IMG/VR virus record: IMGVR_UViG_2609459834_000009
Span: 1 to 25,515 of that record
DNA: 25,515 nucleotides
Origin: a virus
Taxonomy: Duplodnaviria > Heunggongvirae > Uroviricota > Caudoviricetes
Reading direction: 5' to 3' (one strand)
The notes under the pieces are model-generated. The model was not told the origin of the DNA and did not search any database. It saw only the letters and a list, made by a program, of their open reading frames with translations. The translations under genes and the position numbers were made by a program. Below are positions 1 through 24,369 of this stretch, piece by piece; position 1 is the first letter of the stretch, and every line of letters begins with the position of its first letter.

Positions 1-1053
1 TTACGGGGTAATGCCAACCGCTGCCGCCACTTTGTCGCCACTTGGCAGCGTTGCCAGAGGATTGAAACGGAGCGCCGTTTCCAGATGATCCGGTGCCAGA
101 TGTGCGTAACGCATAGTCATTTTTATATCGTGGTGTCCGAGAATTTTTTGTAAGGCCAGAATGTTTCCACCCGACATCATGAAGTGCGCCGCAAACGTAT
201 GGCGCAGAACGTGTGTGAGTTGACCGCGAGGGAGCACGATAGACGTTTTTTCCATCACGGATAAAAATTGAAAATAGCAGTCTGTGAAGAAATTGAACCC
301 ATCAAGCGCCATGATCTCTTCGTAAAGCTCTTTACTGATAGGGATGCTTCTGTTTTTCTTCCCCTTCGTTCTGACAAAGGTAATTCGGTATTTGGTCACC
401 TGTGAGCGGGTAAGATTTACGGCTTCACGCCAGCGTGCGCCTGTGCTTAAGCATATCTTAACTACCAGTGCCAGAATTGGGTCCTGACGTTTGCAATCAG
501 CCAGCAATTCAACAATCTGCTCATGGGTAAGCCATGCCATCTCTTTTTCTGCGATGGTGAATTTTCGCATGTTCTCCAGTGGGTTCGGATACGACCATTC
601 GCCCAGACGGGATAGTTCGCTAAAAACACTACTTAGATAGCTTTGCTCCAGGTTAATGGTGACCGGGCTTGCTCCTTTCTTCCATTTCTCGCTGAAGTAG
701 ATCTCGCCTGTCAGGCGTTTATCTCGATAGTGGGCAAACATTTTAGAGGTGAGATCGGTTGCAAGAGGATTGCCCAGAGCGTCAACCATCAACAGCAATT
801 TGTCATAGACATGCTGCCCAGCTGTCAGAGATTTACCATGTAGTTTGAACCATAGCTCAACCACGTCTTTCAGTGTTCGACGATCCACTGATTCACCCAG
901 CCAGGGCTTTGCTTCGGTTTCTTCCATCGTGTGGCGCTCAAAAGCCAGTGCTTCGCCTTTGGTGACGAATTGTTTACGCACACGACGCCCACTTCGTCCG
1001 GCGGGGTAACATTCGCAAAGCCATTTCCCAGTGGTGAGTTTTCGTACTGCCAT
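1..1053 (-). CDS. int: Tyrosine-type site-specific integrase (P2/186 family)
   Basis: Translation has the tyrosine recombinase C-terminal catalytic region (ARWREA, HVLRHTFA, MRYAHL). ORF is open to 1209, but the N-terminus aligns with P2 Int from the Met at 1051-1053 (MAVRKLTTGKW); upstream extension judged untranslated. Stop at 1-3. Confidence 0.85.
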   Translation of the reverse strand: MAVRKLTTGKWLCECYPAGRSGRRVRKQFVTKGEALAFERHTMEETEAKPWLGESVDRRTLKDVVELWFKLHGKSLTAGQHVYDKLLLMVDALGNPLATDLTSKMFAHYRDKRLTGEIYFSEKWKKGASPVTINLEQSYLSSVFSELSRLGEWSYPNPLENMRKFTIAEKEMAWLTHEQIVELLADCKRQDPILALVVKICLSTGARWREAVNLTRSQVTKYRITFVRTKGKKNRSIPISKELYEEIMALDGFNFFTDCYFQFLSVMEKTSIVLPRGQLTHVLRHTFAAHFMMSGGNILALQKILGHHDIKMTMRYAHLAPDHLETALRFNPLATLPSGDKVAAAVGITP

Positions 1054-1241
1054 AAAAAATGCCCTCCAGTAGAGAGCATTTTCACTGTATGTATAACCAG
1101 TGTCAATGTATGAAATTCTACGACCATACATCTCACTGAAGCCATAATTAAGTTGGCTATTCTTTTTGCTATGTGAGCATGTAACTTTTGCGGTTAACCT
1201 GCGGCTCATTTTTATTTTAGACGCAGATATAAAAGCAAAAG

Positions 1242-1448: not shown

Positions 1449-2105
1449 CTATTTAACATACTTGACTGTTAAACTTATAATTTTACCAATTATTTCAATG
1501 TCTTCTATCTTGCATTCGAAGGCTCTGTTTCCACCCTCGACGAAGATTCTTCCACCGGGTAAACGAGTAATGTCACGGATCGTTATTTCGCCATCAATAC
1601 TTATTACCCATTTACCATCACGTATATCATCAAATTCTTTATCACAAATAAATTCAGAATTGTTATCTGTGATGACAAAAGGTTTTTTAAACGTAGAGGG
1701 TAGAAATCCCTTATCAAAAATATAAAAACCGTCTTTCTGCAATGCTCCATCAGACAATAAATATTTTTCTACTTCTATAGTATTTGTATTTGCTGATGCT
1801 TGCTTTGAACCATGCCCTGTTGTTAGCCAATTAAGCGAGGTGCCCGTTTCAAGGGCGCACTGGATTACCCAATCTGCTGGAAAAATATCACGCATATAGC
1901 GCGTTGCCATGGTGCTCTTAGAAACACCTAAATGATCACATAGAGCCTGACGGGTACCGAACCCATATGCTTCAACTAAACGTTCTATGGCTTTCTTACC
2001 GCCGCTATTGAAATCCACAAGTCCTCCAAAGAAATCCAAAATTCGTTGACAGATTCCAAAAGCGATCTTAAAGTTGAACCAGAAGTGTTCTTTTGGAGCC
2101 TTCAC
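1449..2105 (-). CDS. cI: CI-type immunity repressor (helix-turn-helix)
   Basis: HTH-like segment (GTRQALCDHLGVSKSTMATRYMRD) near the N-terminus; divergent from the Apl/Cox-like gene; immediately upstream of int on the same strand as in P2/186. Start at 2105 is GTG; a shorter product from an internal start is possible. Confidence 0.7.
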   Translation of the reverse strand: MKAPKEHFWFNFKIAFGICQRILDFFGGLVDFNSGGKKAIERLVEAYGFGTRQALCDHLGVSKSTMATRYMRDIFPADWVIQCALETGTSLNWLTTGHGSKQASANTNTIEVEKYLLSDGALQKDGFYIFDKGFLPSTFKKPFVITDNNSEFICDKEFDDIRDGKWVISIDGEITIRDITRLPGGRIFVEGGNRAFECKIEDIEIIGKIISLTVKYVK

Positions 2106-2431: not shown

Positions 2432-2941
2432 ATGTTTGATTACCAAGTTTCCAAACATCCACATTTTGATGAAGCCTGTCGTGCATTCGCACTGCGCCAC
2501 AATCTGGTGCAACTGGCAGAACGTGCGGGCATGAATGTGCAGATTCTGCGGAACAAGCTGAACCCAGCTCAACCTCATTTATTAACCGCACCAGAAATCT
2601 GGCTGCTTACCGATCTGACTGAAGATTCAACGTTGGTAGATGGTTTTCTGGCACAGATTCATTGTCTGCCATGTGTACCGATTAATGAGGTAGCAAAAGA
2701 GAAACTGCCGCATTACGTCATGAGCGCAACTGCAGAGATCGGGCGTGTTGCAGCAGGTGCGGTATCTGGTGATGTAAAAACTAGTGCCGGTCGTCGTGAT
2801 GCTATCAGCAGCATTAACTCTGTAACACGACTGATGGCGCTGGCTGCTGTTTCATTGCAGGCCCGTTTACAGGCTAATCCTGCGATGGCGAGTGCAGTTG
2901 ATACCGTGACTGGCCTCGGTGCTTCATTCGGTTTGCTGTGA
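2432..2941 (+). CDS. cII: CII-like lysogeny establishment regulator (phage 186 CII family)
   Basis: 169-aa product beginning [23 protein letters not shown], which I recall as closely resembling 186 CII; GGAG RBS 9 nt upstream of the ATG at 2432 (track start 2423 is TTG). Confidence 0.75.
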
Positions 2942-2948
2942 GGTGCTT

Positions 2949-3245
2949 ATGCTGACGAAAGAACCATCATTTGCATCGCTGCTGGTAAAACAAAGCCCGG
3001 CAATGCACTACGGTCACGGCTGGATCACGGGTGAGGATGGAAAACGCTGGCATCCATGTCATTCACAAGATGAATTGCTGTCTGAATTGACCACGAGGAA
3101 ACGGAGAAAGTCCAAATGTATGCGGCAGAAAGTGAAGTGGTTTATCAGTTTCGTTACAGAGGGGAGAGTTATTCAGTACCTGAAGATGATTTGCTCTGTT
3201 GCTATCCGTCATTGTCGGGCGATGGCAGTTACTTTTTCACGTTAA
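2949..3245 (+). CDS. Hypothetical early protein (fil-position ORF); 3' portion doubtful
   Basis: ATG at 2949 with GAGGTG RBS. N-terminal 55 aa look protein-like; the C-terminal part overlaps the next ORF in another frame and looks like read-through. Confidence 0.3.
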   Translation: MLTKEPSFASLLVKQSPAMHYGHGWITGEDGKRWHPCHSQDELLSELTTRKRRKSKCMRQKVKWFISFVTEGRVIQYLKMICSVAIRHCRAMAVTFSR

Positions 3246-3340
3246 AGGATGGGACGTTTTTACGGGGAGAGCAGGTTAAAGAGATGATACGAAAAAATAT
3301 ATCTCCTCTTGAGCGTTACCGTAAGAACAAAGAGCGATAG
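3116..3340 (+). CDS. Hypothetical early protein
   Basis: 74-aa ORF with GGAG 9 nt upstream; composition looks like genuine coding sequence; overlaps previous ORF in a different frame. Confidence 0.4.
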   Translation: MYAAESEVVYQFRYRGESYSVPEDDLLCCYPSLSGDGSYFFTLKDGTFLRGEQVKEMIRKNISPLERYRKNKER

Positions 3341-3362
3341 CTGCGTTTGGGGGATATGAAGT

Positions 3363-3704
3363 ATGGCAATTAATGGCGCTGCAGCAACTGTTCCATTAAG
3401 CCCCGGTGAACGCCTGAATGGACTTAATCACATTGCAGAGTTAAGGGCGAAAGTATTTGGCCTGAATATTGAGTCAGAGCTTGAGCGGTTTATTAAAGAT
3501 ATACGTGATCCACGGGATGTTAATTATGAACGAAATAAACGGGCACTGGCTGCTATATTCTTTATAGCAAAAATTCCAGCTGAACGTCATAGCATCAGCA
3601 TTAATGAACTGACCACTGACGAAAAGCGGGAGTTGATTAAAGTAATGAATCATCTTCGTGCAGTGGTGAGCTTATTTCCCAGACGGCTAGCCATGCCGAA
3701 TTAA
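3363..3704 (+). CDS. Hypothetical early protein
   Basis: 113-aa ORF, ATG with G-rich RBS, same strand in early operon. Confidence 0.55.
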   Translation: MAINGAAATVPLSPGERLNGLNHIAELRAKVFGLNIESELERFIKDIRDPRDVNYERNKRALAAIFFIAKIPAERHSISINELTTDEKRELIKVMNHLRAVVSLFPRRLAMPN

Positions 3705-4005: not shown

Positions 4006-4232
4006 TGGCTGATGCAATGGATCTCGTACAGCAGCGCGTTGAAGAAGAACGCCAGCGCCATATCCGTGCAGCCCGTGCCAAATCACCGGGCGTGTCACGC
4101 GTACTTTGCATTGAATGTGAAGCGCCAATTCCGCCAGCACGACGCCGCGCCATTCCGGGAGTGCAGCTTTGCATTACCTGTCAGGAAATCGCAGAACTGA
4201 AAGGCAAACATTACAACGGAGGTGCTGTATGA
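4005..4232 (+). CDS. TraR/DksA-family C4 zinc-finger protein
   Basis: Cys-x2-Cys ... Cys-x2-Cys pattern (CIECEAPIP...CITCQ) in a 75-aa protein; AGGAGG RBS; translationally coupled to flanking genes. Confidence 0.75.
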   Translation: MADAMDLVQQRVEEERQRHIRAARAKSPGVSRVLCIECEAPIPPARRRAIPGVQLCITCQEIAELKGKHYNGGAV

Positions 4233-5086
4233 GCACCATCCTGAAATGGGCGGGAAATAAAACCGCCATTATGCCAGAACTGAAAAAATACCTTCCTGCT
4301 GGCCCGCGACTGGTTGAACCTTTCGCGGGTTCCTGTGCTGTGATGATGGAAACGGATTATCCCAGCTATCTGGTTGCGGATATTAATCCTGATTTAATCA
4401 ACCTCTATAAAAAGGTTGCCGCTGATTGTGAATCGTTTATATCTCGCGCCAGAGTTTTATTTGAGATCGCAAACAGGGAGGTGGCTTATTACAACATAAG
4501 GCAGGAGTTTAACTGCTCAACTGAAATTACTGATTTCATGAAAGCGGTATATTTCCTGTATCTTAATCGTCACGGTTACCGTGGTTTATGTCGCTATAAC
4601 AAGAGCGGGCATTTCAACATCCCCTACGGTAATTATAAAAATCCGTATTTCCCTGAAAAAGAACTTCGCACATTTGCAGAAAAAGCCCAGCGAGCAACGT
4701 TTATCTGCGCCAGCTTTGATGAAACGCTGGCGATGTTGAAGGCGGGAGATGTGGTGTATTGCGATCCGCCGTATGACGGTACGTTTTCCGGCTATCACAC
4801 TGATGGTTTCACTGAAGATGACCAGTATCACCTGGCATCCGTTCTTGAACATCGGTCATCAGAAGGACATCCAGTCATTGTTTCTAACAGTGACACATCC
4901 CTGATCCGTTCGCTGTATCGCAATTTTACTCACCACTATATCAAGGTAAAACGCAGCATCGGTGTGGCAGCTGGCGAGGGTAAATCAGCAACAGAAATCA
5001 TTGCTGTTTCCGGGCCGCGCTGCTGGATGGGATTTGATTATTCGCGTGGCGTGGATAGTTCTGCCGTGTACGGAGTACGTGCATGA
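4229..5086 (+). CDS. dam: N6-adenine DNA methyltransferase (Dam-like, D12 class)
   Basis: DPPY catalytic motif and N-terminal AdoMet-binding region ([17 protein letters not shown]); ATG at 4229 with GGAGG RBS; ORF-track start 4169 rejected. Confidence 0.85.
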
Positions 5087-7497
5087 GTCATGCCGATATG
5101 AACAACTGCTGCGGCTTTAACGAGGCTGCCGCAGCATTCTCATGGAACAGCCCGAAAAAGGCCATTAACCCTTATCTGGACCCGGCGGAAGTTGCGCCGG
5201 TTTCTACGCTTTCAAACCTGATCACTCTGTACGCTGCCGATAACGAGCAGGAACAGTTGCGCCGCGAGGCACTGAGTGATCAGGTCTGGGAGCGTTATTT
5301 CTTTAATGAATCACGTGATCCTGTCCAGCGCGAAATGGAGCAGGATAAGCTCATTAGCCGGGCAAAGCTGGCGCATGAGCAGCAGCGTTTTAATTCAGAC
5401 ATGGTCATTCTGGCGGACGTCAACGCCCAGCCTTCCCATATCAGCAAGCCGCTGATGCAACGTATTGAATACTTCAGCAGCCTGGGCAGGCCAAAGGCTT
5501 ATTCCCGCTATTTACGTGAGACGATTAAGCCATGTCTGGAACGACTGGAGCATGTACGCGACAGTCAGCTATCTGCATCTTTTCGCTTTATGGCAAGCCA
5601 TGAAGGGCTGGACGGCCTGCTGATCCTGCCTGAAATGAGTCAGGATCAGGTGAAACGCCTGTCCACCCTGGTAGCTGCGCATATGAGTATGTGCCTTGAT
5701 GCAGCTTGTGGTGATTTGTATGCCACCGATGACGTTAAGCCAGAAGAAATCCGCAAGACATGGGAAAAGGTGGCAGCGGAAACCCTGCGTCTGGATGTCA
5801 TCCCACCTGCGTTTGAGCAACTCCGTCGGAAAAGAAACCGCCGTAAACCCGTGCCCTATGAACTCATTCCGGGTTCGCTGGCGCGTATGTTGTGCGCCGA
5901 CTGGTGGTACCGGAAATTATGGAAGATGCGTTGCGAATGGCGGGAAGAGCAGTTGCGCGCTGTTTGCCTGGTCAGCAAAAAAGCATCTCCTTATGTCAGC
6001 TATGAAGCCGTGATGCATAAACGTGAGCAGCGCCGTAAGTCGCTGGAGTTTTTCCGTTCTCATGAACTGGTGAACGAAGACGGCGACACGCTGGACATGG
6101 AGGATGTGGTAAACGCCAGCAGCAGCAACCCTGCGCATCGCCGCAATGAGATGATGGCCTGTGTTAAAGGTCTGGAGCTTATCGCGGAAATGCGCGGTGA
6201 CTGCGCCGTTTTCTACACTATCACCTGTCCGTCGCGTTTCCATTCCACGCTAAATAACGGCAGACCAAACCCGACCTGGACAAACGCGACGGTAAGACAA
6301 AGCAGCGATTATCTGGTCGGCATGTTTGCTGCATTTCGTAAGGCGATGCACAAAGCCGGGTTGCGCTGGTATGGCGTGCGGGTGGCTGAGCCGCATCATG
6401 ATGGCACAGTTCACTGGCACCTGTTGTGTTTCATGCGCAAAAAAGACCGCCGTGCCATCACTGCATTACTGCGTAAGTTTGCCATCCGTGAAGACCGCGA
6501 GGAGCTGGGCAATAACACTGGGCCGCGCTTTAAGTCTGAGTTGATTAACCCGCGCAAAGGAACGCCGACAAGCTACATCGCGAAATATATCAGTAAGAAC
6601 ATTGACGGTCGTGGTCTGGCTGGCGAGATCAGCAAGGAAACGGGTAAATCTCTGCGTGATAACGCTGAATACGTGAATGCCTGGGCGTCTCTGCATCGTG
6701 TTCAGCAATTCCGCTTCTTTGGTATTCCGGGGCGTCAGGCTTACCGTGAACTTCGCTTGCTGGCTGGTCAGGCGGCAAGGCAACAGGGTGACAAAAAAGC
6801 AGGTGCGCCGGTACTGGATAACCCGCGTCTTGATGCCATTCTGGCTGCTGCTGATGCTGGTTGTTTTGCCACCTACATCATGAAGCAGAGCGGCGTACTG
6901 GTTCCCCGTAAATATCACCTCATCAGAACCGCTTATGAAATCAACGAAGAGCCGACCGCCTATGGCGATCACGGCATTCGTATTTATGGCATCTGGTCAC
7001 CCATTGCAGAGGGCAAGATCTGCACTCATGCAGTGAAGTGGAAAATGGTTCGTAAAGCCGTTGACGTTCAGGAGGCGGCAGCCGACCAGGGCGCTTGCGC
7101 CCCTTGGACTCGTGGCAATAACTGTCCCCTTGCTGAAAATTTGAACCAACAAGGGAAAGACAAATCAGCTGATGGGGATACCAGGACGGACATTACCCGC
7201 ATGGATGACAAGGAGTTGCACGATTACCTGCACAGTATGAGCAAAAAAGAGCGCCGGGAACTGGCTGCAAGGTTACGCCTGGTGAAGCCGAAACGGCGTA
7301 AAGACTACAAACAGCGAATTACAGACCATCAGCGACAGCAGCTCGTCTATGAACTGAAGTCCAGAGGATTTGATGGCAGCGAGAAAGAGGTCGATTTACT
7401 CCTTCGCGGCGGCAGTATTCCGTCAGGAGCAGGCCTGCGTATCTTCTATCGGAACCAGCGTTTGCAGGAAGATGATAAGTGGCGAAACCTGTATTAA
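5083..7497 (+). CDS. A: Replication initiation endonuclease (P2 gene A family, rolling-circle)
   Basis: 804-aa product with HUH-like motif (HWHLLCF) and YIAKYISKN active-site tyrosine region; ATGA overlap with dam stop. Confidence 0.85.
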
Positions 7498-7589
7498 TTA
7501 CGCGGGTTAACAATTCGTGCTCTTAATAATACCAGGCATATCAGGCTGATGAACGTAAAAAAACGTTTTACATCAGTAAGATTATTATA

Positions 7590-7609
7590 TACTGTAAATA
7601 TAAACAGTG
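7590..7609. promoter_or_regulatory. LexA (SOS) box, CTGT-N8-ACAG
   Basis: tACTGTaaatataaACAGtg, a near-consensus SOS box, about 45 bp upstream of the ORF at 7651 and overlapping AT-rich promoter-like sequence. Confidence 0.65.
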
Positions 7610-7650
7610 GTTATACATACAGTATTGCTTGTGGTGTCATAGGAGGAAAG

Positions 7651-7839
7651 ATGCAGGACTATTTTTTGGAGTCTTTGAAGCTCCAGCGCATTGATTTTTT
7701 TCTTAAGCTTGTAGCGGCTAGTGAGTGTAGTGATGAAGAGAAGGGGCTGGCTTTGCAGTGGGTTTCTGAACTGACAGATGAACTCATGGCAAAAATCAGA
7801 ACCCACGAATACAACCGCTCAATGGATGTCATCAGCTGA
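7651..7839 (+). CDS. Small SOS-regulated hypothetical protein (first gene of tum-like module)
   Basis: 62-aa ORF, ATG at 7651 with AGGAGG RBS; ORF-track start 7549 rejected because it would read through the LexA box. Confidence 0.5.
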   Translation: MQDYFLESLKLQRIDFFLKLVAASECSDEEKGLALQWVSELTDELMAKIRTHEYNRSMDVIS

Positions 7840-7849
7840 GGTGACTTTT

Positions 7850-8083
7850 ATGCGCATTGAAATAATGATCGATAAAGAGCAGAAGATTAGCCAGTCTACC
7901 CTGGACGCCCTTGAATCCGAGCTTTACCGCAATCTGCGCCCTATGTATCCCAAAACGGTAATTCGTATCCGCAAAGGTAGCTCTAACGGTGTAGAACTTA
8001 CCGGATTGCAACTGGACGAAGAAAGAAAACAAGTGATGAAAATTATGCAGAAGGTGTGGGAAGACGACAGCTGGCTGCATTAA
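7850..8083 (+). CDS. DinI-family protein
   Basis: 77-aa product MRIEIMIDKEQ...VWEDDSWLH with the DinI N- and C-terminal signatures (MRIE..., WE.D.W); GAGGTG RBS. Confidence 0.75.
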   Translation: MRIEIMIDKEQKISQSTLDALESELYRNLRPMYPKTVIRIRKGSSNGVELTGLQLDEERKQVMKIMQKVWEDDSWLH

Positions 8084-8218
8084 GAAACGTTGCTGGCGTC
8101 TGAACTTGTTTCTGGCGTCAGCAAGGTTGAACAACGAGCCCTTGCGAGGCGTTAGCTCTGTAGTGCATGTCTATGCCGCATGAGATCGCATGATCGTTTG
8201 AGGATCGTTTTTGCTAAG

Positions 8219-8242
8219 GCCCGCCAGAACTGGCGGGCTTTT
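8219..8242 (+). terminator. Rho-independent terminator after the SOS module
   Basis: GCCCGCCA-gaac-TGGCGGGC hairpin followed by TTTT. Confidence 0.6.
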
Positions 8243-8287
8243 GCGTAGATCATGCAGGTGCATGAAAACCACTACATAAAGCGGGCA

Positions 8288-8306
8288 GGCGTGGCGGGGA
8301 TACGAG
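8288..8306. other. cos-like motif (possible cohesive-end site)
   Basis: GGCGTGGCGGGGA resembles what I recall of P2/186 cohesive-end sequences; recollection-based and unverified. Confidence 0.3.
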
Positions 8307-8378
8307 CGCGCGCCATGTGGTATGGAGATTGGATCTATTCATAACTTGATGTATAAAGTAGAAAAAAGCGGGGAGATT

Positions 8379-9302
8379 ATGAATAAAAAATTTACCGATG
8401 AGCAGCAACAACAGCTTATAGGACATCTCACAAAGAAAGGCTTCTATCGAGGAGCTAATATTAAAATAACCATTTTTCTATGTGGTGGTGACGTTGCTAA
8501 TCATCAATCTTGGCGTCATCAATTATCACAATTTTTAGCAAAGTTCAGTGATGTTGATATATTTTATCCAGAAGATCTATTTGATGATCTTTTGGCTGGT
8601 CAAGGGCAGCATAGCCTTTTAAGTTTAGAAAATATTCTGGCTGAAGCTGTCGATGTAATAATTTTATTTCCTGAAAGTCCGGGGTCTTTCACAGAGCTTG
8701 GTGCGTTCTCTAATAATGAAAACTTAAGGAGAAAGTTGATTTGCATTCAAGATGCAAAATTTAAATCAAAACGTAGCTTTATTAACTATGGTCCTGTTCG
8801 CCTGTTGCGTAAGTTTAATTCAAAATCTGTTTTGCGTTGTAGTTCAAATGAACTAAAAGAAATGTGTGATTCATCTATTGATGTTGCCAGAAAATTACGA
8901 TTATATAAAAAATTAATGGCATCTATTAAGCAGGTTAGGAAAGAAAATAAAGTATCAAAAGATATTGGAAATATATTATACGCAGAGCGGTTTCTATTGC
9001 CTTGTATCTATTTACTGGATAGTGTCAACTACCGCACACTGTGTGAACTAGCTTTTAAAGCGATAAAGCAAGATGATGTTTTATCTAAAATTATTGTTAG
9101 ATCCGTTGTTTCTCGTCTAATAAATGAACGAAAAATACTTCAAATGACTGATGGTTATCAGGTCACTGCTTTGGGGGCTAGCTATGTTAGGAGCGTCTTT
9201 GATAGAAAGACACTTGACCGATTGCGGCTTGAGATTATGAATTTTGAAAACCGTAGAAAATCAACATTTAACTATGATAAGATTCCGTATGCGCACCCTT
9301 AG
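8379..9302 (+). CDS. Retron effector protein (putative nucleoside 2-deoxyribosyltransferase-like N-domain plus C-terminal domain)
   Basis: 308-aa ORF in AT-rich DNA immediately upstream of msr-msd; its stop codon (TAG 9300-9302) lies inside the a1 repeat. Start ambiguous (ATG at 8322, 8349 or 8379). Confidence 0.7.
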   Translation: MNKKFTDEQQQQLIGHLTKKGFYRGANIKITIFLCGGDVANHQSWRHQLSQFLAKFSDVDIFYPEDLFDDLLAGQGQHSLLSLENILAEAVDVIILFPESPGSFTELGAFSNNENLRRKLICIQDAKFKSKRSFINYGPVRLLRKFNSKSVLRCSSNELKEMCDSSIDVARKLRLYKKLMASIKQVRKENKVSKDIGNILYAERFLLPCIYLLDSVNYRTLCELAFKAIKQDDVLSKIIVRSVVSRLINERKILQMTDGYQVTALGASYVRSVFDRKTLDRLRLEIMNFENRRKSTFNYDKIPYAHP

Positions 9303-9458
9303 CGAGAGGTTTATCATTAAGGTCAACCTCTGGATGTTGTTTCGGCATCCTGCATTGAATCTGAGTTACTGTCTGTTTTCCTTGTTGGAACGGAGAGCAT
9401 CGCCTGATGCTCTCCGAGCCAACCAGGAAACCCGTTTTTTCTGACGTAAGGGTGCGCA
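9290..9458 (+). ncRNA. msr-msd: Retron msr-msd non-coding RNA (template/primer for msDNA)
   Basis: Flanked by 12-nt inverted repeats a1 TGCGCACCCTTA (9290-9301) and a2 TAAGGGTGCGCA (9447-9458); internal msr hairpin AGAGGTT/AACCTCT and long imperfect msd stem around GGAGAGCATC-gcct-GATGCTCTCC; sits directly upstream of the RT gene. Matches my recollection of the Ec86 ncRNA. Confidence 0.85.
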
Positions 9459-9464
9459 ACTTTC

Positions 9465-10427
9465 ATGAAATCCGCTGAATATTTGAACACTTTTAGATTG
9501 AGAAATCTCGGCCTACCTGTCATGAACAATTTGCATGACATGTCTAAGGCGACTCGCATATCTGTTGAAACACTTCGGTTGTTAATCTATACAGCTGATT
9601 TTCGCTATAGGATCTACACTGTAGAAAAGAAAGGCCCAGAGAAGAGAATGAGAACCATTTACCAACCTTCTCGAGAACTTAAAGCCTTACAAGGATGGGT
9701 TCTACGTAACATTTTAGATAAACTGTCGTCATCTCCTTTTTCTATTGGATTTGAAAAGCACCAATCTATTTTGAATAATGCTACCCCGCATATTGGGGCA
9801 AACTTTATACTGAATATTGATTTGGAGGATTTTTTCCCAAGTTTAACTGCTAACAAAGTTTTTGGAGTGTTCCATTCTCTTGGTTATAATCGACTAATAT
9901 CTTCAGTTTTGACAAAAATATGTTGTTATAAAAATCTGCTACCACAAGGTGCTCCATCATCACCTAAATTAGCTAATCTAATATGTTCTAAACTTGATTA
10001 TCGTATTCAGGGTTATGCAGGTAGTCGGGGCTTGATATATACGAGATATGCCGATGATCTCACCTTATCTGCACAGTCTATGAAAAAGGTTGTTAAAGCA
10101 CGTGATTTTTTATTTTCTATAATCCCAAGTGAAGGATTGGTTATTAACTCAAAAAAAACTTGTATTAGTGGGCCTCGTAGTCAGAGGAAAGTTACAGGTT
10201 TAGTTATTTCACAAGAGAAAGTTGGGATAGGTAGAGAAAAATATAAAGAAATTAGAGCAAAGATACATCATATATTTTGCGGTAAGTCTTCTGAGATAGA
10301 ACACGTTAGGGGATGGTTGTCATTTATTTTAAGTGTGGATTCAAAAAGCCATAGAAGATTAATAACTTATATTAGCAAATTAGAAAAAAAATATGGAAAG
10401 AACCCTTTAAATAAAGCGAAGACCTAA
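9465..10427 (+). CDS. ret: Retron-type reverse transcriptase
   Basis: 320-aa product with RT motifs QGAPSSPKLANL and YADD, plus the retron-characteristic VTG motif (RKVTGLVI). Confidence 0.9.
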   Translation: MKSAEYLNTFRLRNLGLPVMNNLHDMSKATRISVETLRLLIYTADFRYRIYTVEKKGPEKRMRTIYQPSRELKALQGWVLRNILDKLSSSPFSIGFEKHQSILNNATPHIGANFILNIDLEDFFPSLTANKVFGVFHSLGYNRLISSVLTKICCYKNLLPQGAPSSPKLANLICSKLDYRIQGYAGSRGLIYTRYADDLTLSAQSMKKVVKARDFLFSIIPSEGLVINSKKTCISGPRSQRKVTGLVISQEKVGIGREKYKEIRAKIHHIFCGKSSEIEHVRGWLSFILSVDSKSHRRLITYISKLEKKYGKNPLNKAKT

Positions 10428-10444: not shown

Positions 10445-11470
10445 CTAAAGCTCATAGGTTGAAAAATTGAGCACTTCTTCGTCCAACCAGTTATTTAGTT
10501 CCTGCAATCGTTTCTGCAGGGGCATCAATTCGTTTCTTACGAATACCTTGCTAGCCTTCTCCACATCCCCAAACCCCCCGACATTATTAGGCATAATTCC
10601 CATCATTTGCGGCGGCACGCGGTGTGCCGCCATCATGTCATCACGGCTCACGTTCTTGATATTCAGAAACTCATCCTTCGCTGCGACTTCTGACAACGGG
10701 ATAATCTGAAGTCCGTCTTTTTTACCATTAGGCGAGTACATAAACAGGTTGCGGAAGTTGCCAGGGCCTTTGGCACTTTTCATCGCATTGCGGAGGTTGT
10801 TCACATCTTCCTGGTTCTGCGCGGCGTCGGTCATATACATGATGAAGCCAGCATGACTGCCGTTAATGTAATACTTTCGACGGAACAGCGTGGCGGACTC
10901 ATTGAGCAGGGCGGACGGAATGGCAGAAAGATAGCCTGGCAAGCCGTAGATCTCCTGGTTAATGTCCGGTTCCATCAGATGAAAAATGCTGCCTTTCGTG
11001 AACTGATACGGCTGGGTTGTCATACCGTATTGCACAAACCAGTAGGTATCCAGGTCTAACCCGCGTCGGGTGTATTTTGCCAGTGCAGGCTCAAGGGCGA
11101 TAACTTCACCGAAGCGGTTCGTGCGTTTCTCCAGGTAGGCGTTACCAAAAACCAGATAGTCCTGCACAAAACGCGAAAAAGCCTGCTGGCTGAGCAGCGG
11201 GTGAGGGATGTAGGTGCTGGTCAGAATGTTGCACTTCACTGCAATCGGTGAGCTGTGATGCACGGCGGCGCGGAAGGTTCGCGCCAGTCCGTCGAAACTC
11301 ACAGGCGGCTCATACCAACGATCCATCTGTACGCATTCCACATAGTCCAGCAGTTCGCGGCGGTCCAGAACAGGAACGGGATCGCCAAAGCTGAATGCTT
11401 CGGCTGAAGTTTGGTTTTTATGCTGGATCTGATTCGTCGCCGCAGCGCGTTTTTTCTTACTCTTTCCCAT
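10445..11470 (-). CDS. Q: Portal protein (P2 gpQ family)
   Basis: 341-aa product co-linear with P2 Q; ATG at 11468-11470 with GGAG RBS; start overlaps terminase stop (TGATG). Confidence 0.85.
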   Translation of the reverse strand: MGKSKKKRAAATNQIQHKNQTSAEAFSFGDPVPVLDRRELLDYVECVQMDRWYEPPVSFDGLARTFRAAVHHSSPIAVKCNILTSTYIPHPLLSQQAFSRFVQDYLVFGNAYLEKRTNRFGEVIALEPALAKYTRRGLDLDTYWFVQYGMTTQPYQFTKGSIFHLMEPDINQEIYGLPGYLSAIPSALLNESATLFRRKYYINGSHAGFIMYMTDAAQNQEDVNNLRNAMKSAKGPGNFRNLFMYSPNGKKDGLQIIPLSEVAAKDEFLNIKNVSRDDMMAAHRVPPQMMGIMPNNVGGFGDVEKASKVFVRNELMPLQKRLQELNNWLDEEVLNFSTYEL

Positions 11471-13236
11471 CAAAAAATCTCCACAATATTGCTGGTATTG
11501 GCGGATTCGCCCTGCAGCGGTTCGTTAAACAGTGCGTGCATGGTTGCCCAGGCCAGATCGGCATGGCTGGCTTCTTCGCTGCGGCTGGCTTCATAGGTTG
11601 GGCGGTTGCCGCTGGCGGTGGTGGCGCGACGGATTGCCATAAATGACTGCGCTATGTCGGTGTGTCCGGCGTCAAACTCCAGACGACGGTGACTGATAAT
11701 GTCGTAGGCCTTGAGTACCAGGGCGTTTTTAACGTTGGGGTTGTAGACAAACTCCCGGACGGCTGGAAAAAACGCTTTCACGTTCTCGTAAACCCCGTGG
11801 CCGACACCTGTCGAGTCGATGCCGATGTAGGTCACGTTGTACTGTTCGGTCAGTTTTTTGATGGCGTCAGCCTGGGCGCGAAAGTCCATTCCGCGCCACT
11901 GGTGACGCTCAAGAATGCGGAACTTGCCGCCCGGCACGGCTGGCGGTGCTACCACCACGCATCCGGCGCTGTCGCCATTCTGCGTACCTTTCGCCGGGTC
12001 ATAACCGATCCATACTTCGCGCCAGCCAAACGGGCGCAGGGCCAGTGCATGAAAGTCAGTCCAGACTTCCCAGCTGTCTACCATGCACGCCTGCAGCTCG
12101 CTGAGCGGGAACACGGACGCGAGATCGTCCACAAACTCGCACATCAGCAGGTTCTGGTATTCGTCCGGGCTGTACTCCATGCGCAACTGGTCAAGGTCGA
12201 ACAGGTTACAGCCGCCGCGCACCGCATCTTCCACGGTGACTATCTGGCGGTATTGCCCGTCTGCGCACAGCAGGCCGGGGGCCAGATTGCTGTGGGACAG
12301 GTCGATGTCCACCTTATCGGCTTTGTTGCGCCCACGGTTGAACAGCGCACCGGACCAGAACGGATAAGCACTGTGTGTCAGGCTGGATGGCGTGGAAAAA
12401 TAGGTTTGTCGCCATTTTTTGTGAATAGCCATACCGGAAGCCACTTTGCGCAGCTCCTGGAATTTCGGTATCCAGAAATATTCATCCAGATACAGGTTGC
12501 CGTGGTAACTCTGGGCCGTGCGGGCATTGGTGCCGAGGAAGTAAAGCGTGGCCCCGTTGGGAAGCACCATCGGATCGCCTTTCAGCTCCACCTCCACTTC
12601 TTTGGCGAAGTCGATGATGTACTGCTTAAAGACGTGGGCCTGTGCCTTACTGGCAGAAAGGAAAATCTGGTTACGTCCGGTAAGCAGGGCGTCAATCAGG
12701 GCTTCACGGGCAAAATAGAAGGTCGCGCCGATCTGGCGTGACTTCAGCAGGTTGCGGATGCGGTTGGTTTTTCCGGCTTCCCACCAGTGGCGCTGGTAGT
12801 TGAACATGGAGGAATGGAAAATTTCTTCCAGCTTCTCAATCTGTTCATCGGTGAAAACATTCTTTTCAGGCTGACGGCGTGGGCCTTTGTTGCGGTTGGC
12901 GACGTTAGGGTTTAAGTCAGCTTCGTTGCCGCCATTGTTAAACTTGCCGATCCGCGCGTGGCGCTCCGACTGGCGCGCCAGCAGGTCAATCTCTTTGAAA
13001 TCTTTCCCTTCTTTGTGCTCCTTCATGATGAGCTGGCAGTAGCGTGCGGCGGTGGTGAGCTGCATCTGATCCAGCGGCCCATAGTCACCCCACTTGTCGC
13101 GTTTTTTCCAGCTGTGAACGGTTGCAGCTTTCTCGCCCAGCATTTCAGCAATGCGGGCTACGCGGTATCCCTGAAAGTACAGCAGCATGGCCTGCCGACG
13201 GGGATCGAGATCTGCGGGTGTCAGTGTGGTGTTCAT
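11470..13236 (-). CDS. P: Terminase large (ATPase) subunit (P2 gpP family)
   Basis: 588-aa product; size and position upstream of portal on the minus strand as in P2. Confidence 0.9.
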   Translation of the reverse strand: MNTTLTPADLDPRRQAMLLYFQGYRVARIAEMLGEKAATVHSWKKRDKWGDYGPLDQMQLTTAARYCQLIMKEHKEGKDFKEIDLLARQSERHARIGKFNNGGNEADLNPNVANRNKGPRRQPEKNVFTDEQIEKLEEIFHSSMFNYQRHWWEAGKTNRIRNLLKSRQIGATFYFAREALIDALLTGRNQIFLSASKAQAHVFKQYIIDFAKEVEVELKGDPMVLPNGATLYFLGTNARTAQSYHGNLYLDEYFWIPKFQELRKVASGMAIHKKWRQTYFSTPSSLTHSAYPFWSGALFNRGRNKADKVDIDLSHSNLAPGLLCADGQYRQIVTVEDAVRGGCNLFDLDQLRMEYSPDEYQNLLMCEFVDDLASVFPLSELQACMVDSWEVWTDFHALALRPFGWREVWIGYDPAKGTQNGDSAGCVVVAPPAVPGGKFRILERHQWRGMDFRAQADAIKKLTEQYNVTYIGIDSTGVGHGVYENVKAFFPAVREFVYNPNVKNALVLKAYDIISHRRLEFDAGHTDIAQSFMAIRRATTASGNRPTYEASRSEEASHADLAWATMHALFNEPLQGESANTSNIVEIF

Positions 13237-21081: not shown

Positions 21082-21679
21082 TCTGCTGCCGCCGGGTTCA
21101 ACACCACTGGAGCGCCGACTGGCGCAAACCTGCAGCGGGATTTCTGATCTGCAGGTGCCGCTTCGTGACTTGTGGAATCCGGCAACCTGTCCGGTCAGTT
21201 TCCTGCCTTATCTCGCCTGGGCGTTCTCTGTGGATCGCTGGGACGAGGGCTGGACAGAAAGCGTCAAGCGCCAGGTGGTGAAGGATGCTTTTTATATTCA
21301 TCAGCATAAAGGGACCACCAGTGCCGTGCGGCGGGTGGTGGAGCCGTTCGGCTTTCTGATTCGCATTATTGAGTGGTGGCAGACCGGAGAGGCACCGGGC
21401 ACGTTTCGCCTGGATATCGGCGTGCAGGACCAGGGCATCACTGAAGATACCTATCTGGAACTTGAGCGACTGATAAGCGATGCCAAACCATGTAGCCGCC
21501 ACATGATCGGCATGTCCATCAATCTGCAGACCAGCGGCCCGCATTGGGTGGGAGCCGCCAGCTATCTTGGCGAAGAAATCACGATCTATCCGTATATCAA
21601 CGAAACGATTATTTCCGGTGGCACCGCGCATGAAGGCGGGGCGGTCCATGTTATTGACACAATGAGAGTGAATCCATGA
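21074..21679 (+). CDS. I: Baseplate/tail protein I (P2 gpI family)
   Basis: 201-aa product, GGAGG RBS, overlap with J stop; conserved position between J and the tail fibre gene. Confidence 0.8.
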   Translation: MNSLLPPGSTPLERRLAQTCSGISDLQVPLRDLWNPATCPVSFLPYLAWAFSVDRWDEGWTESVKRQVVKDAFYIHQHKGTTSAVRRVVEPFGFLIRIIEWWQTGEAPGTFRLDIGVQDQGITEDTYLELERLISDAKPCSRHMIGMSINLQTSGPHWVGAASYLGEEITIYPYINETIISGGTAHEGGAVHVIDTMRVNP

Positions 21680-23415
21680 GCACAAAATTTTATACCCTGC
21701 TGACGGATATTGGCGCGGCGAAACTTGCCAGCGCCGCCGCGCTCGGTGTGCCGCTAAAAATTACCCATATGGCGGTGGGCGATGGCGGCGGAGTATTGCC
21801 AACGCCGGACGCAAAGCAGACGGCACTGGTAAATGAGAAACGCCGGGCTGCGCTGAATATGCTTTATATCGACCCGCAGAACAGCAGCCAGATTATTGCT
21901 GAACAGGTGATCCCTGAAAACGAGGGCGGTTGGTGGATACGTGAAGTGGGCCTGTTTGATGAGTCCGGGGCATTGATTGCCGTGGGAAACTGCCCGGAAA
22001 GCTATAAGCCGCAACTGGCTGAAGGCAGCGGGCGTACCCAGACCGTGCGCATGGTGCTGATTACCAGCAGTACGGACAATATCACCCTGAAAATCGACCC
22101 TGCTGTAGTGCTGGCAACCCGCAAGTATGTGGATGACAAGGCACTGGAGCTGAAGGTGTACGCGGATGATCAGATGGCAAAACATCTTGCCGCACCGGAC
22201 CCGCATTCACAGTACGCGCCAAAAGCCAGCCCGACATTTACCGGAACCCCCAAAGCGCCAACGCCAGCGGCGGGGAATAATACCACGCAGGTTGCGACCA
22301 CTGCGTTTGTACAGGCGGCACTGACGGACCTTATTAATGGTGCGCCAGCCACGCTGGACACGCTGAAAGAAATAGCCGCAGCCATTAACAATGATCCGAA
22401 TTTCAGTACCACCATTAACAATGCGCTGGCACTAAAAGCACCGTTGTCGAGTCCGGCACTCACCGGAACGCCAACAGCCCCCACGGCGGCGCAGTCGGTC
22501 AACAATACACAGATTGCCACTACGGCTTTTGTGAAATCGGCGATTGCAGGAATGGTGGGTTCTGCACCTGCTGCACTGGATACACTGAACGAACTGGCGG
22601 CGGCACTGGGGAATGATCCGAACTTTGCCACGACAATGCTTAATGCGCTGGCAGGTAAACAACCGCTGGACAATACGCTTACCAATTTGAGTGGAAAGGA
22701 TGTAGCTGGTCTTCTCACATACCTTGGTATTAAAAACGCATCAACAACACAGGTGGGTTTAGTCCGGTTAACGTCATCGCGGGTATCGGGTGCAGAGGAT
22801 ATTGCAGCCACAGCTAATGCTGTCGCGCAAAACTATACGGACATAAAATCTTTGCAAAACAAAACTCAGGATTCAACTACGACACAGAAAGGAATTGTTC
22901 AACTTACATCATCAAGGGTATCCGAATCTGAAACGCTTGCTGCAACAGCAAAAGCGGCAGCGATGAATTATGCGGATATTGTAGCTCTGCAAGGCAAGAC
23001 TAATGATGCAACCACTACAAACAAGGGAATTATCCGCGTATCTGATTCCAGAACATCAACAGAATCTGGTGTTGCTGCATCATCACTTGCTGCATCACAA
23101 AACTATTCAGATATGAAAGGGTTGTTTGGTCAATGCGGAATGAAATCTAGAAATCTCGGTGTCGTATACACCAACAGCCAGTCTTTCGCCATATTTGTAA
23201 GCGTCAATGCGGTGCTGTCTGACGGTAGTTCATTTCTGAGCGCCAACGTAAGCGTGGATGGTAATTCGGCTAATTTTCGCGGCTCTCAGACAACAAATCT
23301 TGCAGGGCAAAGAGCAACTATCGCATTCATGGTTCCTGCCGGTGCGACCTATATTGTGCAGCAGTTTTCAGGAACAGTGTCAGATGTTACCTGGGTAGAG
23401 GTGGATAAAAAATGA
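21676..23415 (+). CDS. H: Tail fibre protein H with internal repeats and an AT-rich C-terminal receptor-binding region
   Basis: 579-aa product; conserved P2-H-like N-terminus; two tandem ~72-aa repeats and three ~43-aa repeats; composition shifts to AT-rich after about 22670. Confidence 0.85.
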   Translation: MSTKFYTLLTDIGAAKLASAAALGVPLKITHMAVGDGGGVLPTPDAKQTALVNEKRRAALNMLYIDPQNSSQIIAEQVIPENEGGWWIREVGLFDESGALIAVGNCPESYKPQLAEGSGRTQTVRMVLITSSTDNITLKIDPAVVLATRKYVDDKALELKVYADDQMAKHLAAPDPHSQYAPKASPTFTGTPKAPTPAAGNNTTQVATTAFVQAALTDLINGAPATLDTLKEIAAAINNDPNFSTTINNALALKAPLSSPALTGTPTAPTAAQSVNNTQIATTAFVKSAIAGMVGSAPAALDTLNELAAALGNDPNFATTMLNALAGKQPLDNTLTNLSGKDVAGLLTYLGIKNASTTQVGLVRLTSSRVSGAEDIAATANAVAQNYTDIKSLQNKTQDSTTTQKGIVQLTSSRVSESETLAATAKAAAMNYADIVALQGKTNDATTTNKGIIRVSDSRTSTESGVAASSLAASQNYSDMKGLFGQCGMKSRNLGVVYTNSQSFAIFVSVNAVLSDGSSFLSANVSVDGNSANFRGSQTTNLAGQRATIAFMVPAGATYIVQQFSGTVSDVTWVEVDKK

Positions 23416-23780: not shown

Positions 23781-23785
23781 CTGGT

Positions 23786-23971: not shown

Positions 23972-24107
23972 TTTATTTAAAGAGTTATTTGTCTAATGTT
24001 GGAAGCCGCAGCCACGTCGTATGCAAGAACGTGCTGCGGCTGGCTGGAGAACTTTCGATAGTGCGAGTATTGAATGATTTCCAGCCGTTACCGATTTTAC
24101 GTGTTAA

Positions 24108-24356: not shown

Positions 24357-24369
24357 AAAAGTCCCTCTA

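What the first reader, a model, noticed from the sequence alone, without database searches (positions are those of the whole stretch)
7590..8083. LexA-controlled two-gene module ending in a DinI-family protein (tum-like SOS induction module)
A near-consensus SOS box overlaps a promoter-like region upstream of a 62-aa ORF and a DinI-like ORF, each with its own RBS. In phage 186 prophage induction is triggered by a LexA-repressed antirepressor (Tum) at this genomic position. This module may be the induction switch, or a RecA-modulating factor.
Basis: partly seen in the sequence, partly recalled or inferred. Interest (0 to 1): 0.55.

Follow-up and report, generated by a model that had tools for sequence, protein, structure and literature searches.

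The report
SOS-controlled split Tum prophage-induction module
This is the DNA-damage switch of a P2/186/Fels-2-type prophage: a LexA-repressed promoter drives a small antirepressor (TumA) and a DinI-like RecA modulator (TumB), an arrangement already described for Salmonella phages Fels-2 and PSP3, so it is real but ordinary.

Summary
Window 7590-7609 holds a LexA box (TACTGTAAATATAAACAGTG). It is followed by a 62-aa ORF (7651-7839) and a 77-aa DinI-family ORF (7850-8083), each with a Shine-Dalgarno sequence.

The module sits just after replication gene A and just before the terminator and cos site. This is the position of the p95-tum SOS operon in coliphage 186. The same prophage encodes a 186-type CI repressor (1449-2105).

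The 62-aa protein is homologous to the N-terminal half of 186 Tum (hhalign probability 95%, E 3e-8) and 98% identical to Fels-2 STM2728. The DinI ORF matches the C-terminal half of Tum (41% identity) and PSP3 TumB (78%). So this is the "split tum" (tumA/tumB) already noted in the literature for Fels-2 and PSP3, where the upstream gene is reported to be the antirepressor.

Details I did not find reported:
- The operator is a double, overlapping SOS box that aligns without gaps to the colicin E1, pesticin and related bacteriocin operators.
- The promoter and operator are sharply footprinted across 22 loci.
- The DinI gene is missing from 13 of 33 related loci, whereas TumA with its LexA box is retained in 32 and decayed in one.
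- TumA stays 69-92% identical while the CI C-terminal domains fall to 24-42%.

The parts
7567..7572 (+). -35 hexamer TTTACA of the tum promoter (equivalent of 186 p95)
   Evidence: All columns of this hexamer are at least 90% conserved in 22 related loci, while the following 15-nt spacer is only 7% conserved. The layout matches the annotated p95 of 186. Assignment as a promoter is inferred, not shown.
7588..7595 (+). -10 region (TATACT with a 15-nt spacer, or TACTGT with a 17-nt spacer), overlapping LexA box 1
   Evidence: TATACTGT is nearly invariant across loci. In 186 the annotated -10 is TACTGT, the first six bases of its LexA box. The automated promoter scan did not call it.
7590..7609 (+). 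LexA (SOS) box 1, TACTGTAAATATAAACAGTG
   Evidence: 17/20 to the consensus and none expected by chance. 75% of its columns are at least 90% conserved. A LexA box is present upstream of TumA in 32 of 33 genome loci; the remaining locus is decayed.
7605..7624 (+). LexA box 2, CAGTGGTTATACATACAGTA, overlapping box 1 by 5 nt (15-nt offset); a colicin-type double operator
   Evidence: 15/20 to the consensus. It aligns without gaps to the double operators of ColE1 cea, pesticin pst and a colicin-like bacteriocin gene. The Fels-2 version is identical to ColE1 box 2. It is found at exactly this offset in 22 loci, with 75% of columns conserved against 0% in the 15 nt downstream.
7651..7839 (+). tumA: 62-aa predicted antirepressor, homologue of the N-terminal half of 186 Tum
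   Evidence: PHROG phrog_698 at 3.6e-38; the 186 Tum N-terminus hits the same family at 6.4e-6. hhalign of the family profile against 186 Tum gives probability 95%, E 3.3e-8, aligning residues 3-44 of both. 98% identical to Fels-2 STM2728. dN/dS 0.07. AlphaFold2 predicts a two-helix hairpin with pLDDT 88.
7850..8083 (+). tumB: 77-aa DinI-family protein, homologue of the C-terminal half of 186 Tum
   Evidence: Pfam DinI at 1.1e-22. 41% identical to Tum residues 71-145 and 78% to PSP3 TumB. Matches the solved E. coli DinI 1ghh at E 2.7e-6. Scores below the NCBIfam cut-off for chromosomal DinI, 43.5 versus 111 bits.
8086..8128 (+). strong hairpin directly after tumB, with no U-tract
   Evidence: Predicted energy -23.5 kcal/mol, z -4.7. 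Function not established.
8216..8245 (+). intrinsic terminator (GGCCCGCCAG...CTGGCGGGC followed by TTTT), the likely end of the SOS transcript
   Evidence: Predicted energy -25.1 kcal/mol, z -4.2. It was missed by the scan because the T-run has only four Ts. It aligns with the region just before cos in 186.
8288..8306 (+). cos cohesive-end sequence GGCGTGGCGGGGATACGAG; marks the right end of the phage chromosome and bounds the module
   Evidence: 78% identity over 95 nt to the joined 186 right and left ends across the annotated cos site GGCGTGGCGGGGAAAGCAT, E 1e-16.
1449..2105 (-). 186-type CI immunity repressor, the presumed target of TumA
   Evidence: Pfam Phage_CI_repr at 3e-31 and Phage_CI_C at 5e-29; the Peptidase_S24 hit is below threshold.

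Best explanation
Window 7567-8245 is the SOS operon of a Fels-2/186-type (Peduoviridae) prophage, in its split tumA-tumB form.

In an undamaged lysogen, LexA dimers occupy a double, overlapping operator (7590-7624) that covers the -10 region and the transcription start, keeping the operon off. DNA damage activates RecA and LexA cleaves itself, so the promoter fires.

TumA (62 aa, predicted helical hairpin) then binds and sequesters the prophage's 186-type CI repressor (1449-2105), which is not itself RecA-cleavable. This frees the lytic promoter and starts excision and lytic growth. TumB, the DinI-like protein translated 10 nt downstream, most likely binds RecA filaments and tunes the strength or duration of the SOS signal; it is dispensable for the switch itself. 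Transcription ends at the terminator at 8216-8245, just before cos.

Shown here: the sequence anatomy, the homologies, the conservation and the genomic position. Inferred from work on 186, PSP3 and Fels-2: LexA binding, SOS inducibility, the TumA-CI interaction and the TumB-RecA interaction.
For: (1) The operator is far beyond chance. It is phylogenetically footprinted together with a -35 hexamer at fixed spacing: 22 loci with 22 distinct sequences, with -35 columns 100% conserved, box 1 75%, box 2 75%, against 7% in the spacer and 0% downstream.

(2) The position is the same as in 186: gene A, then p95 with its LexA box, then tum, then a terminator. Here the order is gene A (Pfam Phage_GPA), operator, tumA, tumB, terminator, cos.

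(3) TumA is homologous to the Tum N-terminus and TumB to the Tum C-terminus.

(4) The PSP3 record annotates tumA as 'similar to 5' end 186 tum; UV induction of prophage' and tumB as DinI-like. The Fels-2 genes are 98-99% identical to those of the window.

(5) Lemire et al. 2011 (PMC3121763) state that Fels-2 and PSP3 have tum split in two. [quoted passage not shown]

(6) For 186, Tum is expressed from LexA-repressed p95 and sequesters CI (PMC7708051).

(7) A 186-type CI with no convincing S24 peptidase domain lies in the same prophage.

(8) TumA with a LexA box is found in 32 of 33 genome loci (decayed in L038), while DinI is absent from 13. ESSI2-type phages carry only a TumA-like gene behind a single LexA box.

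(9) TumA is under strong purifying selection, dN/dS 0.07.
Against: No experiment exists on this sequence.

BLASTP alone sees no similarity between ORF62 and 186 Tum or PSP3 TumA. Homology rests on profile methods, and the profile match to PSP3 TumA is weak (E 0.004, probability 8%).

Within the ORF62-type family, TumA divergence does not track CI divergence: Mantel rho is -0.03 for the N-terminal domain and -0.10 for the C-terminal domain. One locus, L029 from Pantoea stewartii, pairs an ORF62-type TumA with a 186-like CI. A strictly cognate antirepressor-repressor pair would not predict this.

The PSP3 activity assignment is a personal communication cited second-hand.

The prophage in this window may be defective, because its tail and late region is interrupted after about 23.8 kb by another element. 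Derepression may therefore not yield phage.
Confidence: 0.85

Rival explanations
1. The DinI-family protein (7850-8083) is the actual induction switch or antirepressor, and the 62-aa ORF is an accessory or leader peptide.
For: The DinI-like part is the only portion of 186 Tum that BLAST recognises. Database annotations attach the function to it, for example 'SOS induction modulator'.
Against: DinI is absent from 13 of 33 loci, which still keep TumA and, in all but one decayed locus, its LexA box. ESSI2-type phages have only the TumA-like gene. In the 186 record the DinI-only truncated Tum is annotated as a modulator, while only the full-length product is annotated as inhibiting CI DNA binding. 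In PSP3 the upstream gene is reported to be the antirepressor. ORF62 has dN/dS 0.07, which does not fit a leader peptide.
Confidence: 0.04
2. The module is SOS-regulated but does not act on the prophage repressor. Both small proteins would be host-directed SOS or RecA modulators (a moron), or TumA would target something other than CI.
For: TumA stays 69-92% identical while the associated CI C-terminal domains are only 24-42% identical, and there is no co-divergence. L029 combines an ORF62-type TumA with a 186-like CI. No direct test of Fels-2-type TumA was available to me.
Against: TumA is homologous to the half of 186 Tum that is absent from the modulator-only products. The CI N-terminal DNA-binding domain is conserved at 62-83% in 25 of 26 ORF62-type loci. 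Clearly different CI classes (186, PSP3 with a duplicated N-terminal domain, ESSI2) go with clearly different TumA classes. From my own recollection, not verified here: Bunny et al. 2002 attributed lexA-null lethality in Salmonella to the Fels-2 tum homologue.
Confidence: 0.08
3. The LexA-box match is fortuitous AT-rich promoter sequence, and the two ORFs are expressed constitutively or from read-through of gene A.
For: The region is AT-rich and the automated promoter scan found no sigma-70 site.
Against: No chance matches occurred in shuffles. The CTGT and ACAG cores and the box spacing are conserved in 22 distinct sequences whose flanks have diverged completely. The operator aligns without gaps with experimentally studied colicin operators. 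Its position is equivalent to the annotated LexA site of 186 p95.
Confidence: 0.01

Closest known systems
Fels-2 (Salmonella LT2) STM2728 / STM2726.1 and PSP3 tumA / tumB: the 'split tum' SOS operon of P2-like phages
   Same: The gene order is the same: gene A, LexA operator, about 60-aa TumA, 77-aa DinI-like TumB. The Fels-2 proteins are 98% (TumA) and 99% (TumB) identical to those of the window, and the Fels-2 operator is nearly identical. PSP3 TumB is 78% identical.
   Different: PSP3 TumA is of a different sequence class (phrog_1993 rather than phrog_698; no BLASTP match). PSP3 has a single LexA box, and its tumA stop codon is in frame with tumB, 3 nt apart. In the window and in Fels-2 the genes are 10 nt apart in different frames. 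Downstream cargo also differs: a retron here and other ORFs in Fels-2.
Coliphage 186 p95-tum SOS operon (Tum antirepressor; Shearwin et al. 1998, Brumby et al. 1996)
   Same: A LexA box overlaps the -10 of a promoter just downstream of gene A. The N-terminal antirepressor part and the C-terminal DinI-like part are both homologous. Both phages have a 186-type CI repressor.
   Different: In 186 the two parts are fused in one 146-aa protein, with nested internal starts that also give DinI-only products. 186 has a single LexA box, and orf97 follows before cos. None of the 66 cluster representatives matching ORF62 shows the architecture expected of an ORF62-type TumA fused to DinI, judged from protein length and match position.
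Colicin-type double overlapping SOS operators (ColE1 cea, pesticin pst, colicin-like bacteriocins)
   Same: A 39-42-nt stretch, TA(T/G)CTGTA.ATA.AA.CAGTGGTTATA..TACAGTATT, aligns without gaps. It comprises two boxes at a 15-nt offset, and 814 plasmid records match it at about 83-86% identity. [quoted passage not shown]
   Different: The downstream genes are unrelated (bacteriocins versus an antirepressor). The -35 element lies at a different distance. Binding of two LexA dimers here is inferred, not shown.
Gifsy-1/2/3 dinI-gfoA/gftA LexA-controlled antirepressor operons (Lemire et al. 2011)
   Same: A LexA-repressed operon combines a DinI homologue with a small antirepressor that inactivates a non-cleavable repressor.
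   Different: The gene order is reversed, with dinI first. These are lambdoid rather than P2-like phages, with a different repressor family. Sequence relationship between TumA and GfoA/GftA was not tested.
E. coli chromosomal DinI (PDB 1GHH; RecA-DinI complex 7YWA)
   Same: TumB aligns over its whole length with DinI, including the C-terminal W-E-x-x-D-x-W helix region.
   Different: TumB scores only 43.5 bits against the 111-bit equivalog cut-off. Its C-terminal helix is less acidic. Its effect on RecA is untested.

Membership tests
186/Fels-2/PSP3 Tum SOS operon (LexA-controlled antirepressor module of P2-like phages) | LexA operator overlapping the promoter directly upstream of the first gene | tested here: met
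   17/20 box with none expected by chance. The -35 and both boxes are footprinted across 22 loci. The layout matches annotated 186 p95.
186/Fels-2/PSP3 Tum SOS operon (LexA-controlled antirepressor module of P2-like phages) | Location between replication gene A and the right-hand cos end | tested here: met
   gpA at 5083-7497 (Pfam Phage_GPA) and cos at 8288-8306.
186/Fels-2/PSP3 Tum SOS operon (LexA-controlled antirepressor module of P2-like phages) | Protein homologous to the N-terminal (antirepressor) half of Tum / TumA | tested here: met
   hhalign probability 95%, E 3.3e-8. PHROG cross-hits. 98% identical to the Fels-2 homologue. BLASTP alone is negative.
186/Fels-2/PSP3 Tum SOS operon (LexA-controlled antirepressor module of P2-like phages) | DinI-like part (Tum C-terminus / TumB) | tested here: met
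   Pfam DinI at 1.1e-22. 41% identical to Tum residues 71-145 and 78% to PSP3 TumB.
186/Fels-2/PSP3 Tum SOS operon (LexA-controlled antirepressor module of P2-like phages) | Cognate 186-type CI repressor that is not RecA-cleavable, in the same prophage | tested here: met
   Phage_CI_repr and Phage_CI_C domains at 1449-2105; S24 peptidase is below threshold. Non-cleavability is inferred from family membership.
186/Fels-2/PSP3 Tum SOS operon (LexA-controlled antirepressor module of P2-like phages) | SOS-inducible, LexA-dependent transcription | not testable with these tools
   Needs EMSA or ChIP, plus RT-qPCR after mitomycin C.
186/Fels-2/PSP3 Tum SOS operon (LexA-controlled antirepressor module of P2-like phages) | Antirepressor activity: binds CI and prevents operator binding | not testable with these tools
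   Co-divergence with CI was sought as a proxy and not found within the family. Only coarse class-level pairing was seen.
DinI family (Pfam PF06183) | Match to the family profile above the curated threshold over the full domain | tested here: met
   80.5 bits against a 24.2-bit cut-off, profile positions 1-63 of 63.
DinI family (Pfam PF06183) | Orthology to chromosomal DinI (NCBIfam equivalog NF007893) | tested here: not met
   43.5 bits against a 111-bit cut-off. It is a phage DinI-like paralogue (TumB), not dinI itself.
DinI family (Pfam PF06183) | Binding to RecA filaments | not testable with these tools
   Biochemical assay required.
Colicin-type double overlapping SOS operator | Two LexA boxes overlapping at a fixed 15-nt offset | tested here: met
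   Box 1 at 7590-7609 and box 2 at 7605-7624. They align without gaps to the ColE1, pesticin and bacteriocin operators, and the offset is conserved in 22 loci.
Colicin-type double overlapping SOS operator | Occupancy by two LexA dimers | not testable with these tools
   Needs footprinting with box 1 and box 2 mutants.

The most novel reading that the evidence does not exclude
The Fels-2-type TumA is a broad-specificity ('master-key') antirepressor. It would recognise the conserved N-terminal DNA-binding domain of many otherwise divergent, probably heteroimmune, 186-type CI repressors. One SOS-induced TumA could then cross-induce several different P2-like prophages or satellites in a cell. Its colicin-type double LexA operator would make this a late, high-threshold SOS event fired in only a subpopulation.

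The evidence does not exclude this. TumA remains 69-92% identical across genera while the CI C-terminal domains drop to 24-42% and the N-terminal domains to 62-83%, with no co-divergence. One locus even combines it with a 186-like CI.
Probability: 0.2. Interest if true: 0.45.

Novelty: already known. Interest (0 to 1): 0.2.

Why it matters
The module decides when this prophage leaves lysogeny after DNA damage. Here the prophage also carries a retron defence system of the Ec86/St85 family, so the switch bears on prophage induction, gene transfer and host killing in E. coli and its relatives.

The mechanism itself (LexA, then a Tum antirepressor, then CI) has been textbook for phage 186 since the 1990s. 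The split form has been noted for Fels-2 and PSP3, so the finding adds no new principle.

It does have modest practical value:
- TumA has no Pfam or NCBIfam family and is annotated as 'hypothetical protein' almost everywhere. Some records call it 'levan regulatory protein', and some give it start codons upstream of its own promoter. The functional assignment could therefore be propagated.
- The colicin-like double operator and the lack of TumA-CI co-divergence are cheap, testable leads on induction threshold and prophage cross-talk.

Tried and rejected
- Pairwise BLASTP of ORF62 against 186 Tum and PSP3 TumA gave no alignment. Homology only emerged with PHROG profiles and hhalign.
- Pfam and NCBIfam have no family for ORF62.
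- A profile search of PDB sequences found nothing. Foldseek of the AlphaFold2 model against the PDB gave only generic helical hairpins with E above 0.8.
- I considered programmed read-through or frameshifting that would fuse TumA and TumB into a 186-like Tum, and rejected it. The two ORFs are 9-12 nt apart in all three relative frames across loci. No fused ORF62-type protein appears among the 66 representatives.
- A small hairpin spanning the tumA stop and the tumB ribosome-binding site is not better than shuffled sequence, z -0.98. I make no claim beyond ordinary close coupling.
- I looked for TumA-CI co-divergence as indirect evidence of interaction and did not find it.
- Rfam found no RNA family anywhere in the window.
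- Bunny et al. 2002, the primary paper on Fels-2 tum, is not held in the library. I therefore could not check what it says about the operator.

Full report
**Observation.** The window is a P2/186/Fels-2-type prophage. Its gene order is:
- integrase (1-1209, minus strand);
- a 186-type CI repressor (1449-2105, minus strand; Pfam Phage_CI_repr and Phage_CI_C);
- CII (2423-2941);
- a Dam methylase (4169-5086);
- replication protein A (5083-7497);
- the finding itself;
- a retron;
- the portal, terminase, head, tail and tail-fibre genes.

At 7590-7609 lies TACTGTAAATATAAACAGTG. It matches the LexA consensus at 17/20 with both CTGT and ACAG cores intact. No shuffle of the window produced such a match, and CTGT-N8-ACAG occurs three times against 0.37 expected.

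A 62-aa ORF (7651-7839, AGGAGG five bases upstream) and a 77-aa ORF (7850-8083, GAGGTGA upstream) follow. The second is a DinI-family protein (Pfam E 1.1e-22).

**Promoter and operator.** The generic sigma-70 scan called nothing. However, TTTACA at 7567-7572 sits 17 nt before TACTGT (15 nt before TATACT). This is the layout annotated for the p95 promoter of coliphage 186, where the -10 hexamer is the first six bases of the LexA box.

In 22 related loci with 22 distinct sequences, the proportion of columns at least 90% conserved is:

| Region | Columns at least 90% conserved |
|---|---|
| -35 hexamer | 100% |
| Spacer | 7% |
| LexA box 1 | 75% |
| LexA box 2 | 75% |
| 15 nt downstream | 0% |

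This is a clean phylogenetic footprint.

The second element, CAGTGGTTATACATACAGTA (7605-7624, 15/20), overlaps box 1 by 5 nt. The 39-nt composite aligns without gaps to the double SOS operators of ColE1 cea, Yersinia pesticin and a colicin-like bacteriocin gene. The Fels-2 version of box 2 is identical to the ColE1 sequence. [quoted passage not shown]

More distant relatives (Pantoea, Erwinia, Tatumella, ESSI2 phages) and 186 and PSP3 have a single box.

**The two proteins.** The DinI ORF is 41% identical to residues 71-145 of 186 Tum, 78% to PSP3 TumB and 99% to Fels-2 STM2726.1. It aligns along its whole length with solved E. coli DinI. It scores far below the NCBIfam equivalog cut-off for chromosomal DinI, so it is a phage paralogue.

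The 62-aa ORF has no Pfam or NCBIfam family, and BLASTP finds no similarity to 186 Tum or PSP3 TumA. Profile methods do connect them:
- ORF62 belongs to phrog_698 (3.6e-38).
- The N-terminal 69 residues of 186 Tum hit phrog_698 at 6.4e-6.
- ORF62 hits the PSP3 TumA family phrog_1993 at 2e-3.
- A 26-sequence family alignment built from an exhaustive HMMER search matches 186 Tum residues 3-44 with hhalign probability 95% and E 3.3e-8.

The shared core is ...QRI(E/D)L..RLVA...C...(D/E)K.LA..W..EL.... ORF62 is 98% identical to Fels-2 STM2728. It evolves under strong purifying selection, with median dN/dS 0.07. AlphaFold2 predicts a two-helix hairpin with pLDDT 88, and the fold search was uninformative.

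**What is already known.** In 186, tum lies at this position behind the LexA-repressed p95 promoter. Full-length Tum inhibits CI DNA binding, and shorter DinI-only products 'modulate SOS induction' (annotation; PMC7708051).

Lemire et al. 2011 (PMC3121763) state that Tum looks like an antirepressor fused to DinI. [quoted passage not shown] The last point is a personal communication from G. Christie, cited via Bunny et al. 2002. The PSP3 GenBank record names the genes tumA ('UV induction of prophage') and tumB.

The module in this window is therefore the Fels-2-type split tum. My recollection, which I could not verify because the paper is not held, is that Bunny et al. showed the Fels-2 tum homologue to be responsible for lexA-null lethality in Salmonella.

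**Boundaries.** After tumB come a strong hairpin (8086-8128), an intrinsic terminator (8216-8245; -25 kcal/mol, z -4.2) and then the cos cohesive-end sequence at 8288-8306. The cos region is 78% identical over 95 nt to the joined ends of 186. [quoted passage not shown]

**Comparative survey.** One scan of species-representative genomes returned 33 loci in Escherichia, Citrobacter, Enterobacter, Klebsiella, Raoultella, Kluyvera, Serratia, Pantoea, Erwinia, Tatumella and others. L008 (Escherichia sp. MOD1-EC7003) is 100% identical in TumA and CI and is probably the source or a near relative of the window.
- A LexA box precedes TumA in 32 of the 33 loci. The exception, L038, has a decayed box (13/20) and a TumA truncated to 20 residues.
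- An intact DinI gene follows at 9-12 nt, in any of the three relative frames, in about 18 loci. It is truncated in 2 and absent from 13.
- None of the 66 cluster representatives matching ORF62 has the architecture expected of a fusion to DinI, judged from protein length and match position.

TumA with its operator is therefore the constant core and DinI is an accessory. Read-through or frameshift fusion is excluded.

**A point that does not fit neatly.** If TumA were a strictly cognate antirepressor, it should co-diverge with CI. Within the family it does not. TumA stays 69-92% identical while CI N-terminal domains are 62-83% and C-terminal domains 24-42% identical. Mantel correlations are about zero. 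L029 (Pantoea stewartii) combines an ORF62-type TumA with a 186-like CI.

At a coarse level the pairing does hold. The clearly different CI classes of 186, PSP3 (287 aa with a duplicated N-terminal domain) and ESSI2 go with clearly different TumA classes. The simplest reading is that TumA contacts the conserved N-terminal DNA-binding domain. A bolder reading is that it is a broad-spectrum inducer. Neither can be tested here.

**Verdict.** The refinement is that the unnamed 62-aa gene, not the DinI gene, is the probable switch. The system is already known.

The residual points of interest are minor: the colicin-type double operator, the dispensability of DinI, the conservation of TumA against divergent CIs, and the lack of any curated family for TumA.

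Confidence in the mechanism is about 0.85. Interest is 0.2.

Noticed in passing
window 24108-24415 (minus strand gene) and 24418-25515: A second DinI-family gene (82 aa, 24108-24356 minus strand, Pfam E 1e-19) is preceded by two separate CTGT-N8-ACAG LexA boxes (24372-24387 and 24400-24415). It lies directly downstream of a tyrosine integrase that is cut by the window end. In E. coli genomes this block is annotated as tail fibre assembly, invertase or HTH remnant, DinI-like protein, integrase.
   Followed up: partly
window ~23780-24100: The P2-like late region stops after the tail-fibre genes (H at 21676-23415, then 23412-23780). The expected tail sheath/tube genes, D and ogr do not follow. 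The prophage seems truncated or interrupted at the tail-fibre/invertase region by another integrative element, so it may be defective.
   Followed up: partly
window 8379-10427: A retron of the St85/Ec86 family lies between the cos site (8288-8306) and the portal gene (10445-11473, minus strand). The effector is at 8379-9302 (NCBIfam NF038232, 1e-51) and the reverse transcriptase at 9465-10427 (NF038233, 1e-85). It sits on the left-end side of cos, not in the slot where 186 has orf97. BL21(DE3) carries the same retron at 98.6% identity, with about 700 extra bases containing a 336-nt minus-strand ORF between dinI and the effector; there gene A is a pseudogene. Rfam did not call the msr/msd RNA.
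   Followed up: partly
L029 (Pantoea stewartii ATCC 8199, NZ_CP046558.1), CI at 2204-2725 and TumA at 9001-9186: This prophage pairs an ORF62-type TumA (84% identical to the window) with a 186-like CI (N-terminal domain 68% and C-terminal domain 61% identical to 186 CI; only 35% and 28% to the window CI). It is the one clear exception to class-level TumA-CI pairing.
   Followed up: no
L042 (PSP3, NC_005340) 2719-3579: The PSP3 CI repressor is 287 aa and contains two tandem copies of the CI N-terminal helix-turn-helix domain, unlike the roughly 190-220-aa CIs of 186, Fels-2-like phages and the window.
   Followed up: no
proteins P0147, P0152, P0155, P0172, P0177, P0181, P0169, P0164; L043 8001-8213: Many distant TumA relatives carry a glycine-rich C-terminal tail ending in LQ or FQ (for example ...NPQNGGESGRGALQ). 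The window protein lacks this tail. Its function is unknown.
   Followed up: no
window 7549-7839; proteins P0001, P0005, P0007 and others: Public gene calls often give this protein as 84-101 aa, using start codons such as the ATG at 7549 that lie upstream of the promoter and LexA boxes. These are almost certainly wrong starts. Some sources name it 'levan regulatory protein'.
   Followed up: partly
window 8086-8128: A very stable hairpin (-23.5 kcal/mol, z -4.7) lies immediately after the tumB stop codon and has no U-tract. It is separate from the true terminator at 8216-8245. Its role is unknown; it could be an RNA stability element or a partial terminator like t95a of 186.
   Followed up: no
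window 8170-8330 and the same position in L009-L037: The roughly 150 nt around the terminator and cos site are conserved across genera, whether or not DinI is present. This conservation produces a recurrent spurious ORF ('MKSHDRLRIVFAEARQNWRAFAYVMQVHENHY...') in ORF lists.
   Followed up: partly
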